From an archaeon 13_2_20CM_2_53_6 (GTDB lineage: Archaea; Thermoproteota; Bathyarchaeia; 40CM-2-53-6): 64,000 nucleotides of DNA. The DNA lies in the NCBI GenBank assembly GCA_001915065.1, contig MNDT01000061.1, positions 2,954-66,953 of the forward strand. The letters run 5' to 3'. Within the stretch, counting starts at the first letter, position 1, and the number at the start of each line of letters is the position of its first letter. A model generated the notes under the pieces. It did no database searches and had not been told where the DNA came from. It saw only the letters and a list, made by a program, of their open reading frames with translations. The translations under genes and the position numbers were made by a program. Shown piece after piece: positions 11,266-56,211 of this stretch.

Positions 11266-11364
11266 ATAACGGTGGCCTCTGTCATTCCGGTCATGGCACT
11301 TTCAGCCACTCGCTGCCTTTCACTCAAGCTTGAAAAGGCATGCATCCTGTGTTGTGTTTCGCTC

Positions 11365-12288: not shown

Positions 12289-12404
12289 ATCGAATGCCTG
12301 CTGGTTCGAATAAGCGGCGTCGGAGCGGGCGATATACGTCCGCATGAATGTGCATATCCGAAGGCGAGGAGAGAGGAATTTGGTTGTTCTCGACGTTATC
12401 CTTC

Positions 12405-13415
12405 TTACACACTGATTACACCTCTGATTTGCAATGCCGAGTCCTGAAGTGACTTCCTTATCGCCACCCTAAAGTTGCGGTTCCTGATCTGCCTTACCAC
12501 CGTAGATAGAGGGAGCCCAAGAATGGCATCGACAAAGAAGAGGAACTGCAGAAGGTTCGGACGCATATTCCATTTACGAGCGAATAAGATCATACTCCTG
12601 CAGAAAAGATACCTTCTCGTTGCGCTCTCCATCTGTAGTACACCTCCATGACCCTGACGATGCTCCACTTTAACGCTAGAGAGCAGGATTCTTTTGATTC
12701 CCGCTCTTTCAGCCCTCTTGGCAAGATCTACATCGTTCCACCAGACGGGAAAGCGGGGGTCAAAGATGATCCCGAGGTTCTCAATCGCGCGACGGCTTAG
12801 AAGTAGAAAGCTTGCTCCTGGTGACTCGACAGAAACTGTTTCAGGAAAATTCTCGTCCTGATAGGTGTATCTTCTTCGGACGAGATGGTTCATCAACTTC
12901 CCATCTAGAAAAGACCCCACATAGCCGAAGTCGAAGAAGACTCGTGTGACGGTGGGAAAACGCCTCGTGACTACCCTCTGGGTCTTGCCGTTTTCGTGAA
13001 CCATCTCTGTCGTCATGATTGCATTCGTGTGAGAGGTTCCGTAACGCAATAATTCTAAGAACCCTGTGTTAAAAGCAACGTCAGGGTTGCACAGCAAGAT
13101 CCAATTTCCTCTTGCTTTCCGGTACGCCTGGTCTGTAGCCCTTGATAGACCCACATTTTTCGAATTGTACGCTACCTTCAGCCCTATACCCTTGAAGGTC
13201 AATTCGCTTTCTTGAAGGTATTCGACAGTACCATCTGTTGAGCCATTGTCAACTACCAGGGTTTCTATTTCAATAGGAAGATCCTTCAGTCTGGCCAGTG
13301 ACATGAGACAGGTCATAATCGCATTTCTGCAATTCCACGTGACGATCAATATTGAAACCATGCCTAGCTGTCGGGCGATTGGGGATTCGCTTGAGGTTTT
13401 GCGAGGTTTCGCCAT
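12405..13415 (-). CDS. GT2-family glycosyltransferase (rhamnosyltransferase-like)
   Basis: ILIVTWN...VVDNGSTDGT and a DxD-like CNPDV, typical of GT-A fold. Confidence 0.65.
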   Translation of the reverse strand: MAKPRKTSSESPIARQLGMVSILIVTWNCRNAIMTCLMSLARLKDLPIEIETLVVDNGSTDGTVEYLQESELTFKGIGLKVAYNSKNVGLSRATDQAYRKARGNWILLCNPDVAFNTGFLELLRYGTSHTNAIMTTEMVHENGKTQRVVTRRFPTVTRVFFDFGYVGSFLDGKLMNHLVRRRYTYQDENFPETVSVESPGASFLLLSRRAIENLGIIFDPRFPVWWNDVDLAKRAERAGIKRILLSSVKVEHRQGHGGVLQMESATRRYLFCRSMILFARKWNMRPNLLQFLFFVDAILGLPLSTVVRQIRNRNFRVAIRKSLQDSALQIRGVISV

Positions 13416-13592
13416 GATTTTACAGTGTCATTTTTTAGTTTGGGGCTTCCATGAACTATTGAAGCCTGTGTCGAGATCTCTCATGGTATTCACGTTATCC
13501 CATGACTTTATGATCATCGCCTGGTTAGGGCAGAATACAATTGCAAAGACTTCGCAAATTAGTCAAATTGAATTTGACTATTCATCGACTAT

Positions 13593-14135
13593 TTGCATGA
13601 AGAATCGATTTGCAGGTTCGAACTGGAGTCGTTTAGCTTGACTACCCTGAATCTGGGATGCGCAAACGACCCTTGGGGAGATGTCAAGGTTGACATTTCC
13701 TTCAGGACTCAGACCGGTGCACCCTCGCATCCTGACATGATTGCTGATGCTCACAACCTGCCCTTTCGAGATGCTTCATTTGAGTTTACTCGTTGTTGGC
13801 ATGTCTTGGAACACTTGAAGAATCCACATCAAGCTTTGAGAGAAATACGTAGGGTCTCAAGTCATGGCGAAATTAGGTTTCCGTATGATGACGGTTTCAA
13901 GAGGGAAGCGATTTGGGGAATCTCGATCCTTCAACCCATGATATTCTGGGGTGCCATAAAGACCCGCAGCGTAAGGGCCCATCTTTGGAAGATTCATCCA
14001 GACTCGCTAGCGCATGGTTGCAAAGTCAGGCTGAACCATCACTTCCTATTCGCTCCGATCAGCGGCCGGAAGGCCCACTATTTTCGAGGCTTCGCCTTTC
14101 CTAGAATAAAGCGTGAGTGGGTTCTGACATACTAA
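13593..14135 (+). CDS. Class I SAM-dependent methyltransferase domain protein
   Basis: Motif I-like LNLGCANDPWGDVKVD, an acidic loop, and HVLEHL motif (Methyltransf_11-like). The precise start is uncertain. Confidence 0.5.
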   Translation: MHEESICRFELESFSLTTLNLGCANDPWGDVKVDISFRTQTGAPSHPDMIADAHNLPFRDASFEFTRCWHVLEHLKNPHQALREIRRVSSHGEIRFPYDDGFKREAIWGISILQPMIFWGAIKTRSVRAHLWKIHPDSLAHGCKVRLNHHFLFAPISGRKAHYFRGFAFPRIKREWVLTY

Positions 14136-17978: not shown

Positions 17979-18099
17979 CTATAGATCACCTGTTCATGAA
18001 TGATATTTTCAAGAGTTCATTGCGAGGTTGCAGACAGTTCGACAGCCTAGGTCGTTAGAACTCAAGGATTAAAGCAATCTCGTGTCCTGAATCGTCAGT

Positions 18100-18891
18100 T
18101 TGAAGACAAGCATCATAATCGTCAATTATAAGGTCCCGGACCTTTTGGAAAAGTGCTTGCAAAGCATTCGCGAGCACACGAGTGATTATGAGGTCCTCGT
18201 TCACGACAATGGTCCCCCCAATCCCAACCTGGGCTTTGCAAGAGCGAATAACCTACTCATACGCAAAGCCCGAGGCGACTACATTGTTCTCTTGAATCCT
18301 GATACTTGGGTAACTGAAGGTTGGCTCGAAAAGCTCATCGAGACAGCTCAATCGGATCCCAAGATAGGTGTCGTTCAGTCAAAGACCCTTCGTCCAAACG
18401 GACTCCTCGATAGCACAGGTCATCGATACACTTTCGTGTACGGGGTCTATATCCCCGGCGATAGAGGGGCTCTAGAAGTCGACAGGGGCCAGTATGATTC
18501 TGAGACCGAACTGAAGACCTGCACATTCGCTTCGGTCCTTGTGAAGAGAAGAGTGTTTGAGACATCGGGTCTCCTGGACGAGAAGATGTTCCTCTACTGC
18601 GAGGATATGGAGTTCTGCCTTCGTGCAGCCAGACACGGATGGCGAATAGTATATTGTCCTAAGAGTGTTGTATATCACGTCAGACATGGTTCGGCGTCCA
18701 TGGTAGTGAAGATCTCGCCGTGGCAGGTCTACTTCGCATATATACAATTCAGATATTTTGGGTTCATGCCATTTCTCGCCTTCATCTTCACAACAGTTGT
18801 CCGACTTCCAGCCGGTATAAGCCGCAAAGATGCAACCTATCTGAGGAGGAAGCTCTCCATGATCCCGAAATTGAAACGTATGGTCACGTAG
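18100..18891 (+). CDS. GT2-family glycosyltransferase
   Basis: IIIVNYK...DNG and DxD-like LNPDT; a C-terminal amphipathic/TM segment. TTG start. Confidence 0.65.
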   Translation: MKTSIIIVNYKVPDLLEKCLQSIREHTSDYEVLVHDNGPPNPNLGFARANNLLIRKARGDYIVLLNPDTWVTEGWLEKLIETAQSDPKIGVVQSKTLRPNGLLDSTGHRYTFVYGVYIPGDRGALEVDRGQYDSETELKTCTFASVLVKRRVFETSGLLDEKMFLYCEDMEFCLRAARHGWRIVYCPKSVVYHVRHGSASMVVKISPWQVYFAYIQFRYFGFMPFLAFIFTTVVRLPAGISRKDATYLRRKLSMIPKLKRMVT

Positions 18892-19013
18892 AAAACCCAC
18901 AACCCTTCTCAATGCAAGGGCGAGTCAATGTTGGACTAGCTACTCGCTGTAACCAGAAGGCGACTTGCGAATGCGATATCCAGTAACTTCTCGTCTCGCC
19001 TTCCGGAAAGACA

Positions 19014-19544
19014 TTGATATACCTTGAGGCCCCCAGCAGCCCCATGAAATTATTCCACTGGTTGAGTAGGTCAATCTGGCGAAGCTGGTTCTATTTCAGG
19101 GCAGGGTATGGCACGTATATCGCTCTGCTTATGGGCTATGCTGGCAATTTGGTCGTAATCTACAAGCTCGCAGTGGTCGGCAACAAGTATCTGGAGGTCG
19201 TCTTCTACTCCTTGACAGTTTTCGCAATATTCGGTGTGCTTATTTCTGTGCCGACCGCCATTCTTCTGGGGCTATTTCACGTGAAGAGAACCGGAGCCTA
19301 TGCTGCAGATGCCTCCCTTTCAACTGAAGCTAACCCATACGTGTACAAGGTGATTCCGGGAAAGGAGCGGGAGGTCTTCTTACCGCTGATGGTTCTGACG
19401 GCCAAGGGATTGGCAAAAGTAATGCGGGAGCAGAACGCACTTACAAGGCAGGATAAGGAGGAGTTCGATCTTGTTCTCGCCAAAGCCGAGAGTCTCCTTA
19501 GAGGCCAGATGATCGGCAACCCCAGACAGAAAAATATTCCATAG
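19014..19544 (+). CDS. Membrane protein (2 TM helices) with a conserved C-terminal KVMREQNALxRQDKEEFDxxLAKA module
   Basis: The C-terminal 35-aa module recurs at 22977-23080. The differences between the two copies are mostly synonymous on the + strand, which indicates purifying selection on this frame. Confidence 0.35.
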   Translation: MIYLEAPSSPMKLFHWLSRSIWRSWFYFRAGYGTYIALLMGYAGNLVVIYKLAVVGNKYLEVVFYSLTVFAIFGVLISVPTAILLGLFHVKRTGAYAADASLSTEANPYVYKVIPGKEREVFLPLMVLTAKGLAKVMREQNALTRQDKEEFDLVLAKAESLLRGQMIGNPRQKNIP

Positions 19545-19863
19545 ACTTGATTCCTGCACCCGAATAGCGTTTGAAGCATGGCAAGAATGTGGTCGACATA
19601 TTCTTGGTAGGTTTGCTCAATCCCAACCTGCCCTTCAGCCCAGTAATCTCTTAGCTCCCAACCCACGCCCCGCTTATCGAGGGCTGGTCTTGATTAGATT
19701 CACTGATTCACCGTCCATTCCTTGCAAACTTGTCAATGCGTTCCCGACTATCAGTTTGACCCATGAAATGTTATCACCACTCGCCATTGGTGACCTACGA
19801 AAACACTCTAGATTGCGGACAGGAGAAGTGCTGATGTTTCCGATATCCGAGTAGTGGTCTCGA

Positions 19864-20334
19864 ATGGTCAGTTCAGCGGGTACTCTCGAGAATAGGCCCG
19901 TTAATCGGATAAATTTTGACCACCATACATGGTTGAGCAGAGTTGAACGTGATGCGTCTGAGGAAATCGATGAGAAGGATGTTGCCTACGTCGCGGGTAT
20001 TATTGATGGCGAGGGTTCCTTAGGAATCAAGAAGGATCTATCCTCCATCAGGATGGGTTACTCGAAGAGCCCGCTACGTCACGAGCGAGTCCAGGGAAAA
20101 GACGGCTTCAGAGAGCGTTCTAAGGTTCATCCACCGTCTGTTTCATGGCAGTTTGTATAGGAGAAGACGTACCCAAGCAAGAGTGGCATCACGCCGAACA
20201 AGCCAATGTGGTGTCTCATTCTGTCCGATGCACGTGCGCGCAAGCTCCTGGAATTGGTTCTGCCTTACCTGCGCGTGAAAAAGGCCCAAGCAGAGTTCAT
20301 TTTGCAACTGGGCAAGAGCAAATAATCACCAGAG
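19864..20334 (+). pseudogene. LAGLIDADG-family homing endonuclease, degraded (two frameshifts plus an internal stop)
   Basis: YVAGIIDGEGS is a LAGLIDADG motif. Frame 2 over roughly 20090-20175 encodes SVLRFIHRLFHGSLYRRRR. Frame 1 after the TAG at 20158 encodes KPMWCLILSDARARKLLELVLPYLRVKKAQAE, a typical endonuclease C-terminus. Confidence 0.6.
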
Positions 20335-20680
20335 GCAAGAATACGGAGTTTTCCGGCTAAACGCACAATGAAGGCTGAGATTCTCCATTTTAGGGAGAAA
20401 CTTTACGAGATGGTCAAGCTCTAAACTATTCACGTTCGACCTAGCTGTCGTGCACCCTGACTCGTTTTTATGTATTACACCTGTCCTTAAGGAATATTGA
20501 GCCTACCAAGAGCCTCACACTGAAGAAGTCTCAAATGCAGCAAGGACTTTCAACCCTGGAAAAGCGTCACTCGTATGATACGAAAGAGAGCGAGGAATTG
20601 GCAGGCCCAGGCGTAGTGGCTTTCGAAATCGAGACCGCTATCCTTCGCCTCTTTCTGCCGCTGGTAATCGGAGCGTTCAT

Positions 20681-21301
20681 ATGAAGAGAACAAGAACAAT
20701 GAAAGTCTTCAGAGTTGTTCCGAAGTTCAGGCCCCCGGAAACATACTCGGAGAGCGTCGCGAGAATCGTCAATCCGGTCCTCGACAGCTACACGCACATA
20801 GCCATAGTCGATGACGACACGTCCGTTCCTGAAGCGTTTTTCCAATTACCGGAGGAATATCCGGACGCGGACATCATAGTTCCGAGAGTTCTTCCAAGCT
20901 CCAGGATATACAGAACATGGGAAACGCTAACCTACTGGCTCCGTCTAAGCCGTGTGAGAGCCAGAGGCTGCGCTGTCATATACTCCACGAGATTTCTCAA
21001 ACGGATGGGAGGATATCCCTCCTGGACAGAACAGTATGAGGACACGTACATCCTGAGGAAGGCGAACGCCGTCGTCCAATACAAGAAGATGATAGCTTAT
21101 CACATGGAAAAGTTCAGCATTCGAAAGTCCATAGAAAGGCAGAAGAGGCAAGGCAGAGCGAGGGCGAAACTTCACGACAGTTTCTGGAGAGTCTTAGCGC
21201 ACTCCATCGTGAGGGTCAGGCCAGCGCTTTTCTTCGCCTACGTAGGTCAGAGAATTAGCAGCCCGACCCACAAAGTCGAAGGGCCGGATCACGGACAATA
21301 G
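20681..21301 (+). CDS. Hypothetical protein with a GT-A-like acidic motif (HIAIVDDDTSVP); has a decayed paralog at 22284-22695
   Basis: 206-aa ORF with no confident family assignment. A paralogous fragment lies downstream. Confidence 0.4.
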   Translation: MKRTRTMKVFRVVPKFRPPETYSESVARIVNPVLDSYTHIAIVDDDTSVPEAFFQLPEEYPDADIIVPRVLPSSRIYRTWETLTYWLRLSRVRARGCAVIYSTRFLKRMGGYPSWTEQYEDTYILRKANAVVQYKKMIAYHMEKFSIRKSIERQKRQGRARAKLHDSFWRVLAHSIVRVRPALFFAYVGQRISSPTHKVEGPDHGQ

Positions 21302-21319
21302 GCAAACGGTGGTTGAAAG

Positions 21320-22192
21320 ATGAAAGCGCTGATAACAGGTGGACTCGGGTTCTTAGGACAACATCTTACCAGAAGGCTCAAGGGCGACGGGCATGACGTA
21401 TCCGTCTTAGACGTCAAAGACAATAGTGGGGATGTAAGAGACTATGAAAGCGTAAAGTCTGCGATACGTGGCGTCGATACGGTCTTCCATCTAGCCGCCG
21501 TCGTAGGCGTGGAACAGGCCTCTGCCAACCCGATAGACGTGATGGACACGGAACTGATTGGGATACGAAACCTCGTCAGAGCGTCCGTCGAGAAAGGCGT
21601 CAAAAGAATAGTCTACGCTTCTTCCTCGGAAATCTATGGGAACCGCGCGCTACTTCCGATGAGCGAGTCCGATAGTCCTTCCCCCCTGTCTTCATACGGC
21701 GTTTCAAAGCTGGCAGTCGAACACTATCTGAAAGCCTTCGGCGATAAGATCGAGAGCGTTTCATTGCGCATATTCAATGCATACGGCCCAGGTCAGGATG
21801 AGAGATTCGTGGTAGCCAGATTCATAAACCAGGCCCTGAAAAACGAGCAGATAACAGTCTATGACGACGGACGCCAGACGAGAGATTTCACGTACATTGA
21901 CGATGTCGTCGAGGCTTTCGTCCTGGCAAGCGGGACGAAGTATTTGGGAGAAGTTTTCAACGTGGCAACAGGCATCCAAACCCGAGTCATCAGTCTCGCC
22001 AAGATTGTCAAGTCCGCGACAAGATCCGATTCTAAAATAGTTCTGGTTAGACCTTCCAAGAGATTACCCGAATTTGAAGTCAGGAAAAGGACCGCAAGCC
22101 TCCTGAACTCCAGAAAGAAACTTGGGTTCGAAGCAAAGACTGTTCTAAGAGACGGAATAGTGAAAACCATTACTCTTAGGACCAGAGCTTGA
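21320..22192 (+). CDS. NAD-dependent epimerase/dehydratase (UDP-glucose 4-epimerase-like SDR)
   Basis: TGGLGFLGQHL Rossmann motif and YGVSKLAVE (YxxxK). Confidence 0.75.
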   Translation: MKALITGGLGFLGQHLTRRLKGDGHDVSVLDVKDNSGDVRDYESVKSAIRGVDTVFHLAAVVGVEQASANPIDVMDTELIGIRNLVRASVEKGVKRIVYASSSEIYGNRALLPMSESDSPSPLSSYGVSKLAVEHYLKAFGDKIESVSLRIFNAYGPGQDERFVVARFINQALKNEQITVYDDGRQTRDFTYIDDVVEAFVLASGTKYLGEVFNVATGIQTRVISLAKIVKSATRSDSKIVLVRPSKRLPEFEVRKRTASLLNSRKKLGFEAKTVLRDGIVKTITLRTRA

Positions 22193-22283
22193 GAAATATC
22201 CCTGCGGAACAATGGTGGTGCGTGCACCCTGACTTTTCATCCAGAACTCTGTATGAGAATCTGGGAAACAGATAACCCCCGAA

Positions 22284-22695
22284 TTGTTGGGTAAATACAG
22301 CCATATCGCAATCGTTGATAACAATGTCACCGTCCCAGCAGAATTCTATTCCCTTCACGAAAAATTCGACGCCGACATCATTGAAGTCTATGTCGAACCC
22401 TCCTCACCGGTATTCAGGAGTGCGGTAGAAAGCGACGTTCTGGGTGAGACTTCGGGAAAGGGTCAGAGACTGTGCGACCATTTATCGGACTGACTTTTCC
22501 ATGCGCGTCGGGAGCATCCCAGAGGTAGAAACAGCAGGGACATGGTTCCTAATGCAGACGAAGAAAACAGCGGTCGCGGACTTGACAGTTATTCACAATC
22601 AGAACTTTAGCTTGCGGCATTCGATCAAATTCGAGCTCGAGACGGGAAGAGCAGAGCGAGCTACGCTACTCCTTCACAAAGACGATGCTTCATAG
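22284..22695 (+). pseudogene. Frameshifted paralog of the 20681-21301 gene
   Basis: YSHIAIVDNNVTVPAEFY in one frame and RVRDCATIYRTDFSMRVGSIP...SIKFELETGRAERA in a second frame align to consecutive parts of the 20681 protein. Confidence 0.5.
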
Positions 22696-22764
22696 CACTT
22701 TCAGAGTACCACGAATCGTACTGTTCTCCTCTCTCTATTACAAGCTTATGGATCTTGGTCGTGC

Positions 22765-22972
22765 CTAGGAGCTTGACGAAACCCTCGTCCAGCCCGTCCG
22801 CACCGTCACGCTCACCGCGTTTGGCAAGCGCCCGGCCGAGAACCTCCGGTTCGACCTCGCCCCAGGCGACGAGGGCCTTGACAGACCAGAGCATGCCAAG
22901 ATTCGACGGCGAATTCTCCAACAACCTAGCTTGGAAAGTCCGCTCCAGCCTCAACGACTCCATAGTCTTCCC
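22765..22972 (-). pseudogene. Truncated duplicate of ribosomal protein L30 (uL30) gene
   Basis: ~85-90% nucleotide identity to 26215-26420 (the rpl30 core). Encodes KTMESLRLERTFQARLLENSPSNLGML...GERDGADGLDEGFVKLLG but lacks the L30 N-terminus. Confidence 0.6.
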
Positions 22973-22979
22973 AAAAGTG

Positions 22980-23207
22980 ATGCGTGAACAAAACGCACTG
23001 AGCCGGCAGGACAAGGAAGAGTTCGACAGCATCCTCGCCAAAGCCGACAACCTCCTAAAAGGGCCAGATGATTGGACACCCACGAGAAAGGATTTCGTAG
23101 ACTCGAGTCCGAAAGAAAACAAAGTACACACGCTGGCGCTGACTGAAAGGGATGTACATCCCCACCGCCCATTCGCTATTTATGGAGGCAACCTCCTAGC
23201 AAACTGA
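22980..23207 (+). CDS. Small ORF carrying the conserved MREQNALSRQDKEEFDSILAKADNLLKG module (paralog of the 19014 C-terminus)
   Basis: Same module as 19420-19530, with synonymous-biased divergence. The portion of ORF 22755 upstream of it is antisense to the L30 fragment and probably non-coding. Confidence 0.3.
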   Translation: MREQNALSRQDKEEFDSILAKADNLLKGPDDWTPTRKDFVDSSPKENKVHTLALTERDVHPHRPFAIYGGNLLAN

Positions 23208-23219
23208 GCGCTTAGGATG

Positions 23220-23936
23220 TCACTTGATTGCGTCTGATCCGTGATTCTGATAGATTAGTCCTATTCCTCCCCATCCCTGATTCCAATCCTTGACCATCTC
23301 CTGATAATTGTATTTTGGCATTATCTCATTCCAGAATCTTTGAACCTCTACGGACCTATCTTTTGGGTGCTCAACTATGTCGTGGAGTGCTATCATACCG
23401 CCACTTCTGACTAGCTGAGAATAAGATTCGAAATCAGACTTTACTCCTTCGTATGTGTGGTCGCCATCTATGAACAGGAAGTCTACAGGCCTTCCTTTCA
23501 GAATGTCTTTTACTATTCTTATGGTCGATGGTTCGTGCGAATTGCTGTTTATGAGATGAATTTCTTGCTTTCCTTTCGCAAACGATTTGTAAAGTGGAAT
23601 TCTTAACCTCGAATATCCTCCCCCATAGACTCCGCCGCGGAGATCGACGCTGATTATTGATGCTCTAGGCGAAGCGGCCATGCAAAATAGATACAAACTT
23701 CCGCCATGCGAAGTTCCTATTTCCAACACTGTTCTAGGACTAAACTTTTCGAGCTTCTGCACTAGCGACATGATTTCTTCTCTAACCTGAAGCGGCCTTA
23801 TTGTTACCCCGTGAAATTCGAACTCATAGGCACAGGCAACCGCGTCTTCAAGCGTGTGAACTTGCTTCTTCCGTTCCTTGAATCTCCTGACGACGAGTAA
23901 TTTACCAGGAACATCGAGAAGTGCCGGCAAGTCCAT
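23220..23936 (-). CDS. Class I SAM-dependent methyltransferase (CmcI/TylF-like, Methyltransf_24 type)
   Basis: LEIGTSHGGS motif I and FIDGDHTYEGV, characteristic of this sugar/macrolide O-methyltransferase-like family. Confidence 0.6.
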   Translation of the reverse strand: MDLPALLDVPGKLLVVRRFKERKKQVHTLEDAVACAYEFEFHGVTIRPLQVREEIMSLVQKLEKFSPRTVLEIGTSHGGSLYLFCMAASPRASIISVDLRGGVYGGGYSRLRIPLYKSFAKGKQEIHLINSNSHEPSTIRIVKDILKGRPVDFLFIDGDHTYEGVKSDFESYSQLVRSGGMIALHDIVEHPKDRSVEVQRFWNEIMPKYNYQEMVKDWNQGWGGIGLIYQNHGSDAIK

Positions 23937-24191
23937 TAGACCGCCTTGGTTTTCATTGCCATAAATCTAACCCCGCGCTCGTTTGAATAACTTCCATAAT
24001 CATTCGACTCATGATTTGCGACGCCTCTTCGCGTCCAAGCCGTTCCAGAGCATAGCGGGACGGGGTATTCCAGTGGTGACTACAACCCTATCACTTTGCT
24101 CGTCTTTTCTGCAAAGATTATTGCAATCCTTCCAACGTAGGCTGTTATGAAACAGCGAACAGCTAGTTCTTTAATCGAGAGATTGGCGGCG

Positions 24192-24525
24192 ATGAAATGT
24201 GTCCCTTGCGAAGGTATCGATCGTCTCTCTGAAGGGCAGGTAGAGAATGCATTGTTAGATTTGCCCGGGTGGGTTCGAAGAGACGACTCGATTGAGAAGG
24301 AGTCTCGTTGGATCGTACGGGGCTTGTCTGGAATTCGCTTATGACGTTGGAATGACTGCTGACGCGCAGAATCATCATCCCGAGCTGACGATCAGATGGC
24401 GACGAGTCAGGCTCTCTTGGTCCACTCATTCGATTGGTGGCCTCAGTCAGAATGACATGATAATGGCCGCGAAGTCAGAGTCAGAATATGGAAAGTTCAA
24501 CGACCACCCACAGCATGCGCTTTAA
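24192..24525 (+). pseudogene. Pterin-4a-carbinolamine dehydratase (PCD/DCoH), interrupted by a frameshift near 24300
   Basis: Frame 1 gives MKCVPCEGIDRLSEGQVENALLDLPGWV...SIEKE, the PCD N-terminus. Frame 2 gives SYGACLEFAYDVGMTADAQNHHPEL...THSIGGLSQNDMIMAAK, the PCD core with the NHHPE motif. Confidence 0.55.
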
Positions 24526-24605
24526 CCTGGCCTCACGTTAGGACTCGCGCACAAATCCGTCCGAGCATAAGCCGAGAGAGCCATTGAGTCCGCTGTAGCC
24601 GGGGA

Positions 24606-24923
24606 CTATTTCCTGGCCTTGATTTGTTCTTCTATTGCCTTGAGCCTGTTTTCTATCAGGGTTATCTTGTCGAGTATTTCTTTCAATATTCTTCCCAGCT
24701 CCTCTTCTCGTGGTCCGATGTACTGTCCAGGTCTCAGTGGTGACGGCATCGGCCCTATGGGTCTGGGTCGCAGAGGATCTGGGAGATTTGATGGCTCCAT
24801 AACGGGTCCGATTGGTCTAACGCGCGCTGAGTTTTCAGGGTTTTCATCTGCAAGACCTGCACTTTTTAGAGTTCGAATAGTAGAATTGAAGTCCTCTCGG
24901 ATAAGAGACGAAAGGAAATACAT
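24606..24923 (-). CDS. Hypothetical small protein with Pro-rich segment and C-terminal coiled coil
   Basis: The C-terminal EEELGRILKEILDKITLIENRLKAIEEQIKARK is a heptad-repeat helix. The ORF-track N-terminus (to 24980) is encoded by the leader repeat that is non-coding at the orc1 copy, so an internal Met is preferred (24923, or alternatively 24800). Confidence 0.3.
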   Translation of the reverse strand: MYFLSSLIREDFNSTIRTLKSAGLADENPENSARVRPIGPVMEPSNLPDPLRPRPIGPMPSPLRPGQYIGPREEELGRILKEILDKITLIENRLKAIEEQIKARK

Positions 24924-24944
24924 GTGCACGAGAAAACGCCTAGA

Positions 24945-25155
24945 AAAGCCCTGATCGGCAATCAGGGAGGGGGGTCCCACTGAGCAACTTATTCACGCTT
25001 GAAGGGCCCTCACCAACACGTACTGGAAAACGCTGATCAGCCCGTTCTACGCGTCAAATCGGAAATTTCGCCCAATTCTGTTTCAGATGGCCAGACGACC
25101 CATCCAGGATTTAGAAATAAAAAAATTCCCGCGACACAAGAGTGCTCTCTGGAGT
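24945..25155 (-). repeat. Inverted copy of the orc1 upstream promoter/leader element (34-bp perfect core at 25106-25139)
   Basis: The reverse complement of 24945-25155 aligns to 36113-36330 at roughly 80% identity, including the exact 34-mer ttgtgtcgcgggaatttttttatttctaaatcct. Confidence 0.7.
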
Positions 25156-25402
25156 ACGATCCTTTGCTAGGAAATCGCCTGGAACGAGCCCAGATCGCAA
25201 ATCCAAGCATCCGATTTGAAACCGCGACTTTTCCGCGCTGAGTCATGCGGATACCTCGCACCTACGAAAACCTCCGACCGGCCTATTCCGCGCCCAGAAT
25301 CGCCGGTCTCGCCCAGATCAGTTTCAACTGGTTCGACCTCTCTCCAGAAAATTTCCAGAGCGTTGATCGTCGCGACACATGAGTGGTCTTTGTGGTCTGT
25401 AG

Positions 25403-25933
25403 CTATTCTATCTGTATGGGCCGGCTCGGCTTCTTCTCGTCGCTCTTGATGAACCGGACCTCCAGCACACCGTTCTTGTACGTGGCCTTCGCGGTACGAG
25501 GATCGACCAGATGCCCGAGGTCGAGCTCTTTCAGATAACGCCGTTTCGCCGAGTCCACGCTTATCTTCAACGACCTGTCCGTAGACTCCAACCGTATCTC
25601 GTCCCGCTCCACGCCCGGCAGTTCAGTTACGACCACGATCTCGCGCCCCTCGTCCATAACATCCACCAACGGCTCGCGCTCCTCCTTGACCAAGGGCCCA
25701 CGCGCACTGGGCGCGACATTCCCGAACTCTCTAATGACCGGCTTCCCATCAGCACCGAGAGACATGGAGAAGCCGTAGACGAACGGCGAGACACCCTCCT
25801 GCGTCTTCGGCATCTCCACCGCTTTACGCATCATATCATCCATCAAACGATCCATCCGCTCCATCTCCTCGAACACGTCGAACCACCAGCCGGACCGGCT
25901 GTGGCGACGGCGAGACTCTCTCTTAGGAGCCAA
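25403..25933 (-). CDS. hsp20: Small heat-shock protein, Hsp20/alpha-crystallin family
   Basis: Alpha-crystallin domain (VDVMDEGREIVVVTELPGVERDEI...GVLEVRF). Confidence 0.8.
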   Translation of the reverse strand: MAPKRESRRRHSRSGWWFDVFEEMERMDRLMDDMMRKAVEMPKTQEGVSPFVYGFSMSLGADGKPVIREFGNVAPSARGPLVKEEREPLVDVMDEGREIVVVTELPGVERDEIRLESTDRSLKISVDSAKRRYLKELDLGHLVDPRTAKATYKNGVLEVRFIKSDEKKPSRPIQIE

Positions 25934-26006
25934 TATTCAGCGACCCATCCTTCGAGACAAGTATTCCAGTCGTATTTGAGCTAGCAGAACAATCGATTCG
26001 ACCGGG

Positions 26007-26495
26007 CTAGATCATGCGCTTGACTAGATGGTTGATATCCGCGCCCCGGTAGCCCAGCTCACCACCATCAGTCGCAGCCCTCCTCAGACTCCGCTTAAAC
26101 CCGCCCCGCGGAGGGTGGAGACGGAAACGCGGTTTCAGACCCGCCCGGTACAACGCCTGGACCCCGACCTCGCCAGCCACAACCGCCTTGGCCAGATCCT
26201 CGAAGCTCGTCTTGCCTAGAAGCTTGACAAAACCCTCGTCCAGCCCGTCCGCACCGTCACGCTCCCCACGCTTGACCAGCAGCCGGCCGAGAATCTCCGG
26301 ATCCACCTCGCCCCACGCAACGAGCGCTTTGGCCGACCTTAGCATACCAAGATTCGACGGCGTGTTCTCCAGCAGCCGGGCCTGGAAGGTCCGCTCCAGC
26401 CTCAACGACTCCATAGTCTTCCTTACATCCGGATTATCAGCGGCCGTCCCGCGCAACCGGACCGCAAACAGCAAACCCTTGCTCGACTCTTCCAA
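26007..26495 (-). CDS. rpl30p: 50S ribosomal protein L30 (uL30)
   Basis: VRLRGTAADNPDVRKTMESLRLERTF...SNLGMLRSAKALVAWGEV; position after rps5. Confidence 0.85.
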   Translation of the reverse strand: MEESSKGLLFAVRLRGTAADNPDVRKTMESLRLERTFQARLLENTPSNLGMLRSAKALVAWGEVDPEILGRLLVKRGERDGADGLDEGFVKLLGKTSFEDLAKAVVAGEVGVQALYRAGLKPRFRLHPPRGGFKRSLRRAATDGGELGYRGADINHLVKRMI

Positions 26496-27131
26496 CTAGT
26501 TCACCCAGTCACCCTGCGTCACGACACTGTATGTCCGCGTCAGCGCGTCAAAGACCGCGAGCGCAGATGACGTCAGTGTCGAAGTCGAGCCGAACGTACG
26601 AGTCCAGCAATCCCGCACCCCAGCCAGCCGCAGTACCTGTTTCGGAATCTCACCCGCCACGAGACCCAGACCCCGAGGCCCAGGCAACACCTCCACACGG
26701 ACACTGCCAGTCTTGCCAGTCACGTTAAACGGGACGGTATGCATCGTCCCACAACGACACTCCCAACTCCCACAACCCCGACGGATAGGAATAACATTCA
26801 ACTTCGCCTGGACAGTCCCCTTGTCGATAGCCGTCCGGACCTGTCGAGCCTTCCCTTCTCCCAGCCCGATATAGCCATCCCCATTCCCGACAGCAACGAT
26901 CGCCCGGAAGCGCGATCTCTCCCCCGCGTCAGTCTGCTTCTGCACGAAGCCAATGCCCAAAACCTCCTGCTGAATATTCGGCAACAAGGTATCCACAATC
27001 TCCGGCTCCTTGATCCGTAAACCTTGCGTGAAGATCTCCTCCATCGAGACGATCTCGCCTTGCTGCACCTGCCGGCCCAGCTTCGTCTTAGGGACCCAGC
27101 CGACCTCTTGGCCCGGACGCTGACCCATCAA
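26496..27131 (-). CDS. rps5p: 30S ribosomal protein S5 (uS5)
   Basis: dsRBD plus the S5 C-terminal domain (GIGFVQKQTDAGERSRFRAIVAVGNGDGYIGLGEGKA). Confidence 0.9.
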   Translation of the reverse strand: MMGQRPGQEVGWVPKTKLGRQVQQGEIVSMEEIFTQGLRIKEPEIVDTLLPNIQQEVLGIGFVQKQTDAGERSRFRAIVAVGNGDGYIGLGEGKARQVRTAIDKGTVQAKLNVIPIRRGCGSWECRCGTMHTVPFNVTGKTGSVRVEVLPGPRGLGLVAGEIPKQVLRLAGVRDCWTRTFGSTSTLTSSALAVFDALTRTYSVVTQGDWVN

Positions 27132-27724
27132 GAAGCCCCCAACGACGTGGACAGTACGCTCTTTCTAACCTGCTCGAAATGCCCCGACAAGTCCTCCGGC
27201 TTCAACCCGCGAGCCAGATACGCGCCAAATCGCTTCCTGTACAACTCCTGCTCCCCAACCAACGACTTGGCGTAGGCCGCAATGTGCGAGCCGTTGATCC
27301 TCTCCATCGGAGGCAATGGACCATCAGAGTGTGGAACAATCAGCCCCGAGTCGGCCAATCCTTTCAAAGCCGCAAAAACTTTTGATCCCTTAGTCGGACC
27401 CCTAAGACCGATATCGAGAACTGCCTCCTTAACACCCCGATCAACCGCCCGTCGCGCAGCAAGAACACCCGTCAGATACGCCGCAGGCAGATTCCCAGCT
27501 CCGCCCTTCCAGCCAAGCTTCGCAAGCTCTCGCGAGGATGCCGATGCTCTAACAATATCCCCCCGGATGTCCGCCTCTGAGACCTGAACGATGACGTACT
27601 TGTTGGTAAGCCGGACGACGGCCCTCGGCTTTCCCGACCTGACTAGGGCGCGGCGAAGCTTATAGTCCGTCCTACCCTCCCGCCTACGCCGGTATGGGAC
27701 CGCATAACGTGGACCGTCAGCCAA
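27128..27724 (-). CDS. rpl18p: 50S ribosomal protein L18 (uL18)
   Basis: RRRREGRTDYKLRRALV...RLTNKYVIVQV. Confidence 0.85.
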   Translation of the reverse strand: MADGPRYAVPYRRRREGRTDYKLRRALVRSGKPRAVVRLTNKYVIVQVSEADIRGDIVRASASSRELAKLGWKGGAGNLPAAYLTGVLAARRAVDRGVKEAVLDIGLRGPTKGSKVFAALKGLADSGLIVPHSDGPLPPMERINGSHIAAYAKSLVGEQELYRKRFGAYLARGLKPEDLSGHFEQVRKSVLSTSLGAS

Positions 27725-27728
27725 AGTC

Positions 27729-28157
27729 CTACCGCTTCCTCACCAGGTGATGGGCCTTTACATACTCGTCGACGTGAGACCTGCTCCTAAACACGCCACC
27801 CTTGGCCAAGGCGAGCAGAGTCTTGTAGCCGCCAGGAGCTAGCTGTCTCTTGTCTCTAAGCCAGCGTAGATGGCGGCGGATCGCTCGTATTTTGAGAACC
27901 CAGGCCTCCTTGCCAGGCTTCTGGCCGCCCTTACGGCTCCCCGCCCCCTTACGCCGGCCAGACCGAGCCCTCACGCGTCCTCTGCTGACCCCTGTCTTCG
28001 GTAGCAAGCTTATGCTCCCCTCGCGGATAAGCTTCTTGACCTCGTCGCGCGTTATCGCCGACTGAACCCGATCGATATCTTCAGGGTCGATCCAGACCCT
28101 GTTCAAGCCTCCACCCAGAAGATCAGCGGCGAGTCTCCTCTGGCTCTTGAGGCTCAT
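27729..28157 (-). CDS. rpl19e: 50S ribosomal protein L19e (eL19)
   Basis: SLKSQRRLAADLLGGGLNRVWIDPEDIDRV...IRAIRRHLRWLR. Confidence 0.85.
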   Translation of the reverse strand: MSLKSQRRLAADLLGGGLNRVWIDPEDIDRVQSAITRDEVKKLIREGSISLLPKTGVSRGRVRARSGRRKGAGSRKGGQKPGKEAWVLKIRAIRRHLRWLRDKRQLAPGGYKTLLALAKGGVFRSRSHVDEYVKAHHLVRKR

Positions 28158-28642
28158 TCAGAATCCTCTCCGGTCACAGACTCCTCTTCGCCATCCTCGG
28201 CAACCTCGACTTGTTCAGTTGGCTCCTCAACTGGAGTTTCAGTAGGGACAGGTTCCCTTTCCTCGACCCTCTCAGCTACTGGTCGACTCTCTCCCTTTCC
28301 AGGGTTTGCGATATGAAAATTCTGCTCTTTCGCCTTGGCGACGATCCCTATCCGCTTTCTCTCGCCAACCCGCGCGGCGATCCTGATGATGTGTATCTTC
28401 GCATCGAGCTTCTCGAGTTCTGACTCGCGCCACACGAGATGTTCGACCAGCCCTCTGGGATGGAGGCCTCTCGCGGATGCGATGGATCCGTACCCCACCT
28501 TTACTTTCGGAGGGAACCCGCTCTCCTCCTTCCGCATCTTACTCGTGACCCCACGCGGTCGACGCCAGTTTTCCGCCACTCTCCTGTACCGCCAGCTCTC
28601 CTGGCGCTTGAATTCGGGCTTTGAACTCTTCATCATTCTCAC
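28154..28642 (-). CDS. rpl32e: 50S ribosomal protein L32e (eL32) with acidic C-terminal tail
   Basis: KPEFKRQESWRYRRV...WRRPRGVTSKMR. Confidence 0.8.
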   Translation of the reverse strand: MRMMKSSKPEFKRQESWRYRRVAENWRRPRGVTSKMRKEESGFPPKVKVGYGSIASARGLHPRGLVEHLVWRESELEKLDAKIHIIRIAARVGERKRIGIVAKAKEQNFHIANPGKGESRPVAERVEEREPVPTETPVEEPTEQVEVAEDGEEESVTGEDSE

Positions 28643-29130
28643 TTTGACGGGCTATGCGGCGAATGCGCGGGCCCTTTTGCGGAGATGTAGATTCCGTCCA
28701 GGAAGACCCGCAGATCCTTCTCCTTGATCCTGGTGCTATCCTGAATATTCGCAGCCGTCTGGCTTACAGATTTCAGGTCTACCCCTTCAACTGATATGTC
28801 ATCGCCCTTGATGGCAACTTTCACTCCTTCCAGGATCCTCGCGTATCTGGGGGTTTTCTCGCCTGTGAAGTTCTCGATCTTCAAGACCTTCGCCTTCTCG
28901 TCCACTTTGACGGTTACTGGAAAGTGGGCGTAGACCGTCCGCAGATCGTACTTGTAGCCCTGCGTGACCCCTTTGATCATGTTTCTGACATGGGCGGCGG
29001 CGGTTCCCAGCATTCCAATCTCTCGCTTCCGCGGCCACACGGTCTGTAGCCGGACCTGGTTCTGTTCGACGCTGAGTGAGACTGGCAGGTGTGAAAGGTC
29101 CTCGACGAGGGCGCCTAGTGGGCCCTTCAC
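28639..29130 (-). CDS. rpl6p: 50S ribosomal protein L6 (uL6); N-terminus probably extends upstream of the called GTG
   Basis: Two L6 repeats. The in-frame upstream sequence (to ~29215) encodes ...VPENVSVQIEGRIVKVKGPLGAL, which matches the L6 N-terminal strand, but no ATG/GTG/TTG is available there. Confidence 0.8.
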   Translation of the reverse strand: MKGPLGALVEDLSHLPVSLSVEQNQVRLQTVWPRKREIGMLGTAAAHVRNMIKGVTQGYKYDLRTVYAHFPVTVKVDEKAKVLKIENFTGEKTPRYARILEGVKVAIKGDDISVEGVDLKSVSQTAANIQDSTRIKEKDLRVFLDGIYISAKGPAHSPHSPSK

Positions 29131-29224
29131 TTTTACAATTCGGCCCTCTATTTGTACGCTGACGTTTTCTGGTACCTGAAGGGTTCTCTGAAGAGTCTCA
29201 AATCGTGCCGTGGATCCTCGCCCT

Positions 29225-29608
29225 CTAGAAGACGTATCCGAGGAGTTGTCCGCCTGAGCCCGCTTCGCGTGCCTCTTTGTGTGCCAAGACTCCTTTCGGG
29301 GTTGTCAGTATGAGGATGCCGACATCTCGCGAGGGAAGGTATCGTCTGCCCCATTTTTCGAATTCGCCTATTGTGGTGGAGAATCTTGGTCGTACGCTGC
29401 CGCAGTTGTTGACCCGTCCTAGGAGCTGGATCTTGAATTTTCCTCCTCTGCCGTCGTCCACGAACTCGAACTCTCCCACGTAGCCATATTTCTGCATGAC
29501 CCGGAGAACCTGGCCCATCAGTTTGGATGCGGGATAGACGATACACTCGTGCTTGTGTCTCCGCTCGTTGTTGAGGATGGATGAGAACATGTTTGATATT
29601 GGTTCCAT
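29225..29608 (-). CDS. rps8p: 30S ribosomal protein S8 (uS8)
   Basis: ISNMFSSILNNERRHKHECIV...GGQLLGYVF. Confidence 0.85.
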   Translation of the reverse strand: MEPISNMFSSILNNERRHKHECIVYPASKLMGQVLRVMQKYGYVGEFEFVDDGRGGKFKIQLLGRVNNCGSVRPRFSTTIGEFEKWGRRYLPSRDVGILILTTPKGVLAHKEAREAGSGGQLLGYVF

Positions 29609-52917: not shown

Positions 52918-53080
52918 GGGCTCGGTTCTCAGCGGACTAGAACAATCCCCTATAGGATTCATCGATCTGAACACGATCACGGAATCCTCCGCAGATCTTG
53001 TCTCCCAGGCGAACTCGAACGAACAGGCACAGGAGAGTTCTTCGCAGAATACAGCCTCAACGTCGAACCACAAGCAGCTA

Positions 53081-55623: not shown

Positions 55624-55635
55624 GAACAGCCTTCT

Positions 55636-56058: not shown

Positions 56059-56211
56059 CTCCGTTATCAGACGTTCAACCGTATTCTCGACTACCTGGAA
56101 AGCTCCAACAAGATCCTCCTTGACATGGGAGAGATTGTCTGGACCTTCCCCAATAATCCGAGACTGCGAAGACTGCTTAGAGAAAGTGTCCGGGTCTGAT
56201 AGACAGATCGC

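What the first reader, a model, noticed from the sequence alone, without database searches (positions are those of the whole stretch)
19014..24600. Mosaic decay zone between the glycan cluster and the r-protein operon: gene fragments, paralog remnants and a dead homing endonuclease
Within 5.5 kb there are six separate oddities. Item 1 is a LAGLIDADG endonuclease with two frameshifts and an internal stop. Item 2 is a ~210-bp truncated copy of rpl30, 3.3 kb from the real rpl30. Item 3 is two copies of a 35-aa module, KVMREQNALxRQDKEEFD..LAKA. Item 4 is an intact 206-aa gene at 20681 and a frameshifted paralog at 22284 flanking an epimerase gene. Item 5 is a frameshifted PCD gene. Item 6 is an intact TylF/CmcI-like methyltransferase.

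The pattern suggests repeated insertion and recombination events. A mobile element carrying the homing endonuclease may be responsible, with pieces of neighbouring genes copied in.
Basis: seen in the sequence. Interest (0 to 1): 0.55.

Follow-up and report, generated by a model that had tools for sequence, protein, structure and literature searches.

The report
Recombination scars beside archaeal glycan island
This is the variable edge of a cell-surface sugar gene cluster in a soil Bathyarchaeia archaeon, where DNA swapped in from related lineages left real gene fragments and decaying passenger genes; it is a clear example of a known process, not a new kind of element.

Summary
All six oddities are real, and I found a seventh: a truncated DNA methyltransferase at 19559-19769 on the minus strand.

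- **Not an artefact.** Ten independent assemblies are 99.6-99.97% identical across the region. Two diverged lineages (about 87% and 89% nt identity) share parts of the mosaic, including the exact rpl30'|TM176' joint.
- **Variable position.** Gene content between the last glycan genes and orf124-Hsp20-rpl30 differs in every related Bathyarchaeia lineage examined.
- **Patchwork ancestry.** 18101-22351 matches a sister species (L019). 22972-23936 matches a different arrangement (L031: full TM176 directly followed by the CmcI-like methyltransferase). The PCD pseudogene resembles only a more distant clade.
- **Fragments are not copies of neighbours.** The rpl30 fragment diverged from the resident gene mostly by synonymous changes (dN/dS about 0.11), so it came from another lineage's working rpl30. 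The second "module" is the 3' end of an L031-type TM176 allele.
- **Resident rpl30 is chimeric**, with a crossover near 26400-26500.
- **The LAGLIDADG gene is a passenger.** It is I-CreI-like and free-standing, and it decays independently in two lineages. Nothing links it to the rearrangements.

Best model: repeated island replacement by inter-lineage recombination, with one blunt illegitimate joint. This is a new member of a known kind, of modest interest.

The parts
18100..18891 (+). GT2 glycosyltransferase. It starts the block that is colinear with sister species L019 (18101-22351).
   Evidence: Pfam Glycos_transf_2 precomputed for the called gene. It is 82-85% aa identical in L019, L026, L027 and L031. 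The order GT1(-)-GT2-TM176 is conserved in L019, L026 and L027; L024/L025 carry an extra Methyltransf_11 gene between GT2 and TM176.
19014..19544 (+). TM176: intact 176-aa membrane protein of a large uncharacterised family. Its last ~43 codons (19414-19544) are 'module copy 1'.
   Evidence: 394 homolog clusters, none of the 120 listed with a precomputed Pfam domain and no Pfam hit for TM176 itself. 91% aa identity to L019. Copy 1 is 96.2% nt identical to L019 and 69.5% to L031.
19559..19769 (-). Truncated, frameshifted N-terminus of a DNA (N4/N6-type) methyltransferase. New item.
   Evidence: Two reading-frame pieces at 19677-19769 and 19559-19669. tblastn gives 170 phage records; the ten listed are annotated methyltransferase/methylase at 40-41% identity over 92% of the query, best E 2e-3. 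The only PDB hit is M.PvuII at E 0.9, aligned on the SPPF motif region. No Pfam hit. Also present in L019.
19864..20424 (+). Pseudogene of a free-standing, single-motif (I-CreI-like) LAGLIDADG endonuclease.
   Evidence: The +G at 20094 is polymorphic: present in the window, L002 and L010, and absent in seven other assemblies. L019 has different disabling indels and no stop at 20323.
20681..21301 (+). p206: intact short GT-A-like glycosyltransferase.
   Evidence: No direct Pfam hit. The family has 39 clusters at 50% identity. 18 of 28 aligned homologs hit Pfam GT2. The AlphaFold model has pLDDT 89.7, and nearly all listed Foldseek PDB hits are GT-A glycosyltransferases, mostly GT2, with TM 0.4-0.55. 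96.6% aa identity to L019.
21320..22192 (+). Intact NAD-dependent sugar epimerase/dehydratase.
   Evidence: Pfam Epimerase 1.8e-53. 96% aa identity to L019 and 98% to L035.
22257..22695 (+). p206': pseudogene paralog of p206.
   Evidence: tblastn gives 46% identity over 56 aa, E 2e-12. The second frame continues the homology. There are upstream stops, and DDD is changed to DNN. Homology with L019 stops at 22351. Many non-triplet indels against L035.
22758..22971 (-). rpl30': internal fragment (codons ~25-96) of an rpl30 allele from another lineage.
   Evidence: 86% nt identity to the resident gene, 85.5% to L019, 75% to L031. dN/dS about 0.11. The branch test rejects neutral decay, P=0.0003. 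The identical joint is present in L034 and L035.
22972..23100 (+). TM176': leftover 3' end (last ~43 codons plus stop) of an L031-type TM176 allele, with a +1 G frameshift. This is 'module copy 2'.
   Evidence: 85.2% nt identity to the L031 TM176 3' end. After removing one G it has the same tail...LLKGQMIGHPRERIS*. It is colinear with the CmcI-like gene, as in L029-L033. The joint with rpl30' is blunt, with at most 1 nt of microhomology.
23220..23936 (-). Intact CmcI/TylF-like (rhamnosyl O-) methyltransferase.
   Evidence: Pfam RMNT_CmcI 2e-13 and Methyltransf_24 5.5e-16. Orthologs at 80-83% aa identity in L029-L036.
24147..24525 (+). PCD': pterin-4a-carbinolamine dehydratase pseudogene with a single frameshift near 24306.
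   Evidence: Intact orthologs in L012, L014 and L015 are 47-50% aa identical and lie next to orf124. The frameshift is present in all population assemblies that cover it (L001-L009). The nearer relatives carry an MG2-like surface-protein gene at this position instead.
24606..24980 (-). orf124: the first gene of the backbone shared with all relatives, marking the right limit of the variable zone.
   Evidence: Homologs in L012-L015, L019, L024, L031 and L036. No Pfam hit.
26007..26495 (-). Resident rpl30, intact but chimeric. The interior (~26100-26400) is L019-like; the 5' end and everything upstream in the operon are L031-like.
   Evidence: Identity profile. Against L031: 78-82% at 26100-26400 and 96-100% in S5 through L6. 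Against L019: 90-93% in rpl30 and 77-92% in S5.

Best explanation
The stretch is the variable right-hand edge of a cell-surface glycan gene island. The island abuts orf124-Hsp20-rpl30 at the end of the ribosomal-protein operon in a soil Bathyarchaeia population.

Shown:
- The region is a patchwork of at least four segments with different nearest relatives.
- The arrangement differs in every related lineage examined.

Inferred sequence of events:
1. An ancestor had the L031-like order GT2-TM176-CmcI.
2. It took up DNA from a lineage with an L019-like order: GT2-TM176-MTase'-LAGLIDADG'-p206-epimerase-p206'...rpl30.
3. The left side recombined by homology.
4. The right end, lying inside the donor's rpl30, was joined illegitimately and bluntly into the recipient's TM176 at codon ~134.
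5. This left a donor rpl30 piece fused to the recipient's orphaned TM176 3' end.
6. Redundant donor DNA between p206' and rpl30' was later deleted.
7. Further exchanges made the resident rpl30 chimeric and put a PCD gene where relatives have an MG2-like surface protein.

The LAGLIDADG endonuclease, the DNA methyltransferase, p206' and PCD are non-essential passengers now decaying by frameshifts and stops. The endonuclease did not cause the rearrangements.
For: Reality of the sequence: ten independent assemblies at 99.6-99.97% identity.

Variable position: L012, L014 and L015 have L30-Hsp20-orf124-PCD-GT1. L019 shares 18101-22351 and 24604-29265 at 88-89%, but has a different middle containing Methyltransf_11 and an MG2-like gene. 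L029-L033 have a full TM176 directly followed by the CmcI-like gene (L030-L032 also show GT2 on the other side of TM176), colinear with window 22969-23930. L034 and L035 share epimerase-p206'-rpl30'-TM176'-CmcI with an identical joint.

Allele assignment: copy 1 is 96% identical to L019 and 70% to L031. Copy 2 is 85% identical to L031 and 73% to L019.

rpl30' diverged under purifying selection: dN/dS 0.11, and 19 of 30 mismatches at third codon positions. On its branch there are 13 synonymous and 7 non-synonymous changes against 14.2 non-synonymous expected, P=0.0003. Changes shared with L035 are 11:3, and private changes are 2:4. In an NJ tree it is sister to resident plus L019.

Neutral decay of the remnants: at least 12 indels, mostly not multiples of three, between the window and L035. 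The LAGLIDADG remnant carries independent lesions in the window and in L019.

Boundary signature: the backbone is 96-100% identical to L031, but the rpl30 interior is 78-82%. This matches the substitution peaks described at the borders of replacement flexible genomic islands (PMC4033161, abstract).

Joint: blunt, with at most 1 nt of microhomology.
Against: No donor lineage with an rpl30 allele matching rpl30' was found.

The island block is no closer to L019 (89%) than the backbone is (88%). The donor was therefore not the L019 lineage itself, or the event is old.

The model needs an extra deletion between p206' and rpl30'.

The left crossover was not located, because L031 is still divergent at the edge of the fetched locus.

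Counts on 70 codons are small. The order and number of events are inferred, not observed.

The flanking direct repeat (copy 1 and copy 2) could also be read as the ends of an insertion.
Confidence: 0.7

Rival explanations
1. A site-specific integrative element of about 3.45 kb (19545-22971) inserted into the 3' end of TM176. It brought its own replacement 3' end, so copy 1 and copy 2 would be attL and attR. The methyltransferase and LAGLIDADG remnants would be what is left of its mobile core.
For: Direct repeats of the TM176 3' end bracket the segment. L029-L033 show an 'empty site' with TM176 directly followed by the CmcI-like gene. The first genes inside the segment are selfish-element types, and the LAGLIDADG family is common in viral contigs.
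Against: No integrase, transposase or recombinase was found in the Pfam scans of the candidate genes and remnants in the segment. The repeats are only 76% identical and belong to different allele types. The right end of the segment is an rpl30 fragment, not element DNA. L019 carries the left part without copy 2. Most of the segment consists of ordinary, conserved glycan genes.
Confidence: 0.12
2. Local duplication. Pieces of the resident neighbours rpl30, TM176 and p206 were copied into the zone, perhaps through repair of breaks made by the homing endonuclease, and then decayed in place.
For: The fragments are closest to genes that lie within 4 kb of them. A LAGLIDADG gene is present.
Against: rpl30' has too few non-synonymous changes for in-place neutral decay (P=0.0003). 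Its pre-split changes are 79% synonymous. Copy 2 is closer to the L031 and L024 alleles than to the resident TM176. p206' is only 37-46% aa identical to p206. The endonuclease remnant is not at any joint.
Confidence: 0.08
3. Assembly or binning chimera, or sequencing-error frameshifts, in a metagenome-assembled genome.
For: The source is a metagenome assembly. One frameshift (G at 20094) differs between assemblies.
Against: Ten assemblies from different samples and assemblers agree at 99.6-99.97% and share every joint and every other frameshift. Two diverged lineages share joints.
Confidence: 0.02
4. Some of the 'remnants' are functional. Examples would be PCD expressed through programmed frameshifting, or the chimeric ORFs 22661-23131 (-) and 22755-23207 (+) acting as new genes.
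For: PCD' has a single frameshift, and all conserved residues downstream are intact. The two ORFs are 150-156 aa long.
Against: The chimeric ORFs are broken by many non-triplet indels in L035 and have no Pfam hit. PCD appears fragmentary or stop-interrupted in L013 and L027, gave no tblastn hit in L019, L024 or L031, and is replaced by an MG2-like gene in L019, L024 and L031. No frameshift-stimulating signal was examined.
Confidence: 0.05

Closest known systems
Replacement flexible genomic islands for surface glycans, exchanged by homologous recombination in flanking core genes (Lopez-Perez, Martin-Cuadrado and Rodriguez-Valera 2014, PMC4033161)
   Same: The chromosomal position is the same in related genomes but the gene content differs. 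The content is glycosyltransferases, sugar epimerases and methyltransferases. There is a sharp peak of substitutions in the flanking core gene: the rpl30 interior is 78-82% identical against 96-100% for the rest of the operon.
   Different: Here the organisms are uncultured soil Bathyarchaeia. One joint is illegitimate and left a ribosomal-protein gene fragment. The comparison is between metagenome contigs, not complete strain genomes.
Homology-facilitated illegitimate recombination, described for naturally transformable bacteria such as Acinetobacter and Streptococcus pneumoniae (my own knowledge, not checked in the paper library)
   Same: One side of the incoming DNA is anchored by homology and the other is joined without homology. 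The result is foreign DNA plus a truncated recipient gene at the joint.
   Different: This is inferred from sequence only. The homologous crossover was not mapped. No DNA-uptake mechanism is known for this archaeon. Published joints often show 3-10 nt of microhomology, whereas here it is at most 1 nt.
I-CreI / I-MsoI / I-CvuI family of homodimeric single-motif LAGLIDADG homing endonucleases
   Same: There is one LAGLIDADG motif (VAGIIDGEG), the size is ~150-185 aa, and the family profile matches I-CreI over ~115 positions at E about 4e-11.
   Different: It is free-standing rather than intron-encoded, is only 25-39% identical to its nearest intact relatives (many of them in viral contigs), and is inactivated by two frameshifts and a stop.
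O-antigen and capsule locus switching between conserved flanking genes in bacteria (my own knowledge)
   Same: A glycan cassette bounded by conserved housekeeping genes is replaced wholesale, and remnants and pseudogenes accumulate at the edges.
   Different: The flanking anchor here is the end of the ribosomal-protein operon, and the host is an archaeon.

Membership tests
LAGLIDADG homing endonuclease (I-CreI-like, single motif) | LAGLIDADG motif with a conserved acidic residue, and family-wide sequence similarity | tested here: met
   The motif AYVAGIIDGEG is invariant in alignment A2. The profile hits I-CreI, I-MsoI and I-CvuI at E 1e-7 to 1e-21. Pfam LAGLIDADG_1 alone is below its cut-off at E 0.015.
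LAGLIDADG homing endonuclease (I-CreI-like, single motif) | Intact reading frame, as needed for an active enzyme | tested here: not met
   Frameshifts at 20094 and 20159/20160, and a stop at 20323-20325.
LAGLIDADG homing endonuclease (I-CreI-like, single motif) | Residence in a group I intron, archaeal intron or intein, or next to a recognisable homing site | tested here: not met
   No tRNA genes or Rfam families in the window. The gene is free-standing, between a methyltransferase remnant and p206. No target site could be identified.
Ribosomal protein uL30 gene (rpl30) | Full-length coding sequence within the ribosomal-protein operon | tested here: not met
   The fragment 22758-22971 covers only codons ~25-96 of 162 and lies outside the operon. 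The resident gene at 26007-26495 is full length.
Pterin-4a-carbinolamine dehydratase (Pfam PF01329) | Domain match and intact frame | tested here: inconclusive
The frame is broken once in every assembly that covers it (L001-L009). It is therefore a family member by descent and probably non-functional.
Replacement flexible genomic island | Same locus with different gene content in close relatives | tested here: met
   At least five arrangements at this position: L012/14/15, L019, L024, L027, L031, and the window with L035.
Replacement flexible genomic island | Peak of (mostly synonymous) divergence in the flanking core gene at the island border | tested here: met
   The rpl30 interior is 78-82% identical to L031, against 96-100% for S5 through L6. 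L30 is 88.9% aa identical while S5 is 100%. The synonymous fraction for this particular pair was not computed.
Homology-facilitated illegitimate recombination | An illegitimate joint next to foreign DNA, with a homologous anchor on the other side | tested here: inconclusive
   The blunt joint is mapped at 22971/22972, and foreign ancestry is shown on both sides. The homologous crossover on the left was not located.
Integrative mobile element | Integrase or recombinase gene, and near-identical att repeats | tested here: not met
   No recombinase was found in the Pfam scans of the candidate genes and remnants in 19014-24600. The repeats are 76% identical.
GT-A fold glycosyltransferase family 2 (for p206) | GT-A fold and DxD motif | tested here: met
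   Model pLDDT 89.7, and nearly all listed Foldseek hits are GT-A glycosyltransferases, mostly GT2. 18 of 28 homologs hit Pfam GT2. VDDD lies at residues 43-46. p206 itself is below Pfam detection.
N4/N6 DNA methyltransferase (Pfam PF01555-like) | Full catalytic domain with the (S/D)PP(Y/F) motif | tested here: not met
   Only ~75 N-terminal residues remain. The motif reads SPR-stop in the window and SPQY in L019. Similarity to phage methyltransferases reaches E 2e-3. No Pfam hit.

The most novel reading that the evidence does not exclude
The 5' part of rpl30 may be a recurrent recombination anchor for exchange of whole surface-glycan islands between soil Bathyarchaeia lineages. On this reading, the rpl30'|TM176' joint is a fossil of DNA uptake followed by one-sided homologous and illegitimate integration. 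That would be direct genomic evidence for frequent inter-lineage gene exchange in an uncultured archaeal class with no known transfer mechanism.
Probability: 0.45. Interest if true: 0.45.

Novelty: new member of a known kind. Interest (0 to 1): 0.3.

Why it matters
The region documents, with several independent lineages as controls, that uncultured soil Bathyarchaeia exchange cell-surface glycan gene cassettes by recombination. The crossovers reach into a ribosomal-protein gene.

It gives a datable set of pseudogenes (LAGLIDADG, DNA methyltransferase, PCD, p206') for estimating neutral decay rates in this group.

For annotation, the ORFs called across 22661-23207 and the split PCD and LAGLIDADG ORFs are pseudogene artefacts. 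The resident rpl30 is chimeric, which matters when it is used as a phylogenetic marker.

It does not reveal a new molecular system.

Tried and rejected
- **RNA genes.** The tRNA scan and the Rfam gathering scan of the whole window found nothing, so there is no intron host or RNA gene in the gaps.
- **Donor of rpl30'.** The last protein search returned the fragment ORF itself (P0136, 100%). The other hits retrieved were resident-type or more distant L30 sequences, mostly cut at contig ends, with a best identity of 86%. No donor was found.
- **Exact look-up of the resident L30.** Not on record.
- **Microhomology at the rpl30'|TM176' joint.** None beyond 1 nt.
- **Methyltransferase-endonuclease cassette.** None of the 35 viral-contig homologs of the LAGLIDADG protein has a match to the methyltransferase remnant within 3 kb. 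Contexts of two intact homologs are one possibly viral contig of small unannotated genes, with no Pfam hallmark, and one next to a UDP-glucose dehydrogenase.
- **Pfam on unassigned ORFs.** TM176, p206, orf124, the 150-aa chimeric ORF and the methyltransferase remnant gave no hits.
- **Base composition.** GC is 0.46-0.52 across the zone, similar to the rest of the glycan cluster, so it gives no foreign-DNA signal.
- **Assembly artefact and local duplication.** Both considered and rejected, as set out under the rival explanations.

Full report
**What is in the sequence**

The window comes from an archaeon with a ribosomal-protein operon on the minus strand (L30, S5, L18, L19e, L32e, L6 and onward from 26495). 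A long cluster of sugar-nucleotide, glycosyltransferase and methyltransferase genes lies to its left. Records that hold near-identical or related DNA are titled 'archaeon 13_1_40CM...', 'Candidatus Bathyarchaeota' or 'Bathyarchaeia', and come from soil metagenomes.

- The LAGLIDADG remnant spans 19864-20424 with two frameshifts and a stop.
- A 214-nt piece at 22758-22971 is 86% identical to the interior of the resident rpl30.
- A module of ~110-130 nt occurs at 19414-19544 and again at 22972-23100.
- An intact 206-aa gene (20681-21301) has a broken paralog at 22257-22695.
- PCD (24147-24525) carries one frameshift. The repaired protein scores 7.8e-23 against Pfam Pterin_4a.
- A CmcI-like methyltransferase (23220-23936, minus strand) is intact.

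I found one more remnant. On the minus strand at 19559-19769 lie the first ~75 residues of a DNA methyltransferase, split by a frameshift and cut off next to the TM176 stop codon. tblastn finds 170 phage records. The ten listed are annotated methyltransferase/methylase, at about 40% identity over 92% of the query. Its only PDB match is M.PvuII at E 0.9, which is not significant on its own, and Pfam does not detect it.

**Is it real?**

The 206-aa protein is encoded, residue for residue, in at least 33 blocks of the public collection. Ten loci from different samples and assemblers (NCBI MAGs, ENA and JGI soil metagenomes) align to window 18001-26500 at 99.6-99.97% identity, with all joints and all frameshifts present. 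Apart from a scaffold gap (run of N) in L008, the only indel difference inside the finding is the G at 20094. It is present in the window, L002 and L010 and absent in seven others, so the first LAGLIDADG frameshift is a population polymorphism and the remaining lesions are fixed. Mis-assembly and reading errors are excluded.

**What the individual genes are**
- *LAGLIDADG.* The repaired protein aligns end to end with intact 140-210 aa proteins (invariant AYxAGIIDGE and VxPYL). A profile of that family matches I-CreI, I-MsoI and I-CvuI at E 1e-7 to 1e-21. It is therefore a free-standing single-motif LAGLIDADG gene. Thirty-five relatives sit in viral contigs.
- *TM176.* The 'module' is the C-terminus of TM176 (19014-19544), a member of a large family of ~165-aa membrane proteins with no Pfam model.
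- *p206.* It is a short GT-A-type glycosyltransferase. 18 of 28 homologs hit Pfam GT2. The model has pLDDT 89.7, and nearly all its listed structural matches are GT-A glycosyltransferases, mostly GT2.

**Comparison with relatives**

Five kinds of neighbourhood were recovered.
- *L012, L014 and L015 (more distant Bathyarchaeia):* L18-S5-L30-Hsp20-orf124-PCD (intact)-GT1.
- *L019 (sister species, 88-89% nt):* it shares window 18101-22351 colinearly. This block is GT2, TM176, methyltransferase remnant, LAGLIDADG remnant, p206, epimerase and the first 18 codons of p206'. It also shares 24604-29265. Between the two it carries a Methyltransf_11 gene and an 830-aa MG2-like protein.
- *L029-L033, best seen in the 46-kb contig L031:* a full-length TM176 is followed directly by the convergent CmcI-like gene, then an MG2-like gene, orf124, Hsp20 and L30. 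None of the material at window 19545-22971 is present.
- *L034 and L035 (about 87% nt):* the same mosaic as the window, epimerase-p206'-rpl30'-TM176'-CmcI, with the identical joint sequence ...CCATAGTCTTCC|CAAAAGTGATGC....
- *L024 and L027:* these show further variants downstream of TM176.

The space between TM176 and orf124 is thus a hypervariable position at the border of the glycan island.

**Ancestry of the pieces**
- *Backbone.* The window's r-protein genes are 96-100% identical to L031 but only 77-96% identical to L019.
- *Left block.* In contrast, 18101-22351 is 89% identical to L019, while its genes are only 72-79% identical at nt level to those of L031.
- *TM176 copies.* Copy 1 of the TM176 3' end is 96% identical to L019 and 70% to L031. 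Copy 2 is 85% identical to L031 and 73% to L019. After removal of one inserted G it ends in the same ...LLKGQMIGHPRERIS-stop as L031. Copy 2 together with the CmcI-like gene is therefore what remains of an L031-type arrangement. TM176 with copy 1 and the genes after it belong to an L019-type arrangement.
- *rpl30'.* It is 86% identical to the resident gene, 85.5% to L019 and 75% to L031, and in an NJ tree it branches outside resident plus L019. Its differences from the resident gene are mainly synonymous: dN/dS about 0.11, with 19 of 30 mismatches at third positions. On its own branch there are 13 synonymous and 7 non-synonymous changes, where neutral decay predicts about 14 non-synonymous (P=0.0003). 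Changes shared by the window and L035 copies, which predate their split, are 11 synonymous to 3 non-synonymous. Changes private to either copy are 2 to 4, accompanied by indels. The numbers are small but the direction is consistent. The piece was part of a working rpl30 in another lineage for most of its divergence, and has decayed neutrally only since it was captured.
- *Resident rpl30.* It is itself chimeric. Its interior is L019-like (90-93%, against 78-82% to L031). From about 26400-26500 onward the operon is L031-like. The switch lies close to the position where rpl30' is cut (equivalent to 26422).
- *PCD'.* It resembles only the PCD of the distant clade (66-68% nt) and occupies the place of the MG2-like gene of all nearer relatives. 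No MG2-like gene exists anywhere in the window.

**Decay**

Between the window and L035 the stretch 22190-23150 has at least 12 indels, most of them not multiples of three. Between the window and L019 the LAGLIDADG remnant has different disabling lesions. The window has the deletion at 20159/20160 and the stop at 20323. L019 has a lost ATG, a 2-nt deletion after the motif and other indels. These sequences are evolving without coding constraint. By contrast p206, the epimerase and the CmcI-like gene are 80-98% aa identical across lineages and intact.

**Mechanism**

*Shown:* the zone is a patchwork of segments with discordant nearest relatives, at a position whose content differs in every lineage. 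It is bounded by a core gene with a local divergence peak. This is the pattern described for replacement flexible genomic islands that encode surface structures and are exchanged by homologous recombination (PMC4033161).

*Inferred:* the central joint arose when an L031-type genome incorporated L019-type DNA. A homologous crossover occurred somewhere to the left. The right end, inside the donor's rpl30, made a blunt illegitimate join into the recipient's TM176 at codon ~134 (no microhomology). A later deletion then removed donor DNA between p206' and rpl30'. At least two more exchanges are needed to explain the chimeric resident rpl30 and the PCD' segment.

**Role of the endonuclease**

The LAGLIDADG and methyltransferase remnants lie in the interior of the L019-type block, not at a joint, and predate the window/L019 split. 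Nothing ties them to the rearrangements. No integrase, transposase, intron or intein host is present. An integrative-element reading, with the TM176 repeats as att sites, remains possible but is weakly supported.

**Verdict**

The phenomenon belongs to a known kind, island replacement with recombination scars, and is documented here in uncultured soil Bathyarchaeia. Interest is modest.

Noticed in passing
window 26007-26495 (resident rpl30), compared with L031 and L019: The resident rpl30 is a chimera. Its interior at ~26100-26400 is 78-82% identical to L031, whereas the rest of the operon is 96-100%. The same interior is 90-93% identical to L019. This matters if uL30 is used as a marker gene.
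   Followed up: partly
window 25403-26495, and L011-L015, L019, L031: In this clade rpl30 is followed by an Hsp20 gene and a conserved 124-aa Pro-rich/coiled-coil ORF (24606-24980, no Pfam hit). I expected rpl15-secY there from my own knowledge of other archaea, and no L15 or SecY homolog was found in the ORFs I scanned downstream.
   Followed up: no
L019 13111-15603; L024 10900-13077; L031 5251-7863; L029-L036: A large (725-870 aa) surface protein with a weak MG2 domain (32.2 bits, just below the 32.8 gathering cut-off) and a C-terminal hydrophobic stretch sits between the glycan island and orf124 in the nearer relatives. It is absent from the entire 64-kb window.
   Followed up: partly
window 52918-57028: This is the stretch with the lowest ORF coverage in the window (0.43). 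It has a 1.3-kb gap with no ORF of at least 100 aa at 52918-54244 and no Rfam hit. It also holds a cluster of toxin-antitoxin-like genes: PIN 55636-56058 with a small upstream ORF, DUF2283 56212-56412, and Fic/Doc 56627-57028.
   Followed up: partly
window 5183-7501: A 772-aa ORF inside the glycan cluster has no Pfam hit.
   Followed up: no
window 11254-14135, compared with L001-L010: Gene callers give different lengths in different assemblies of the same population for the epimerase at 11254-12288 (254-331 aa) and the GT2 at 12405-13415 (299-336 aa). This suggests further polymorphic start sites or lesions elsewhere in the glycan cluster.
   Followed up: no
L013 3428-3767; L027 7638-7862: The PCD genes of two other lineages also look broken (split tblastn matches, and in-frame stops in L027). 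PCD gave no tblastn hit in the fetched L019, L024 and L031 loci. PCD seems to be lost repeatedly in this group.
   Followed up: partly
L021 4823-6185: One intact homolog of the LAGLIDADG protein (P0004) lies next to a UDP-glucose dehydrogenase gene, which is again a sugar-metabolism context.
   Followed up: no
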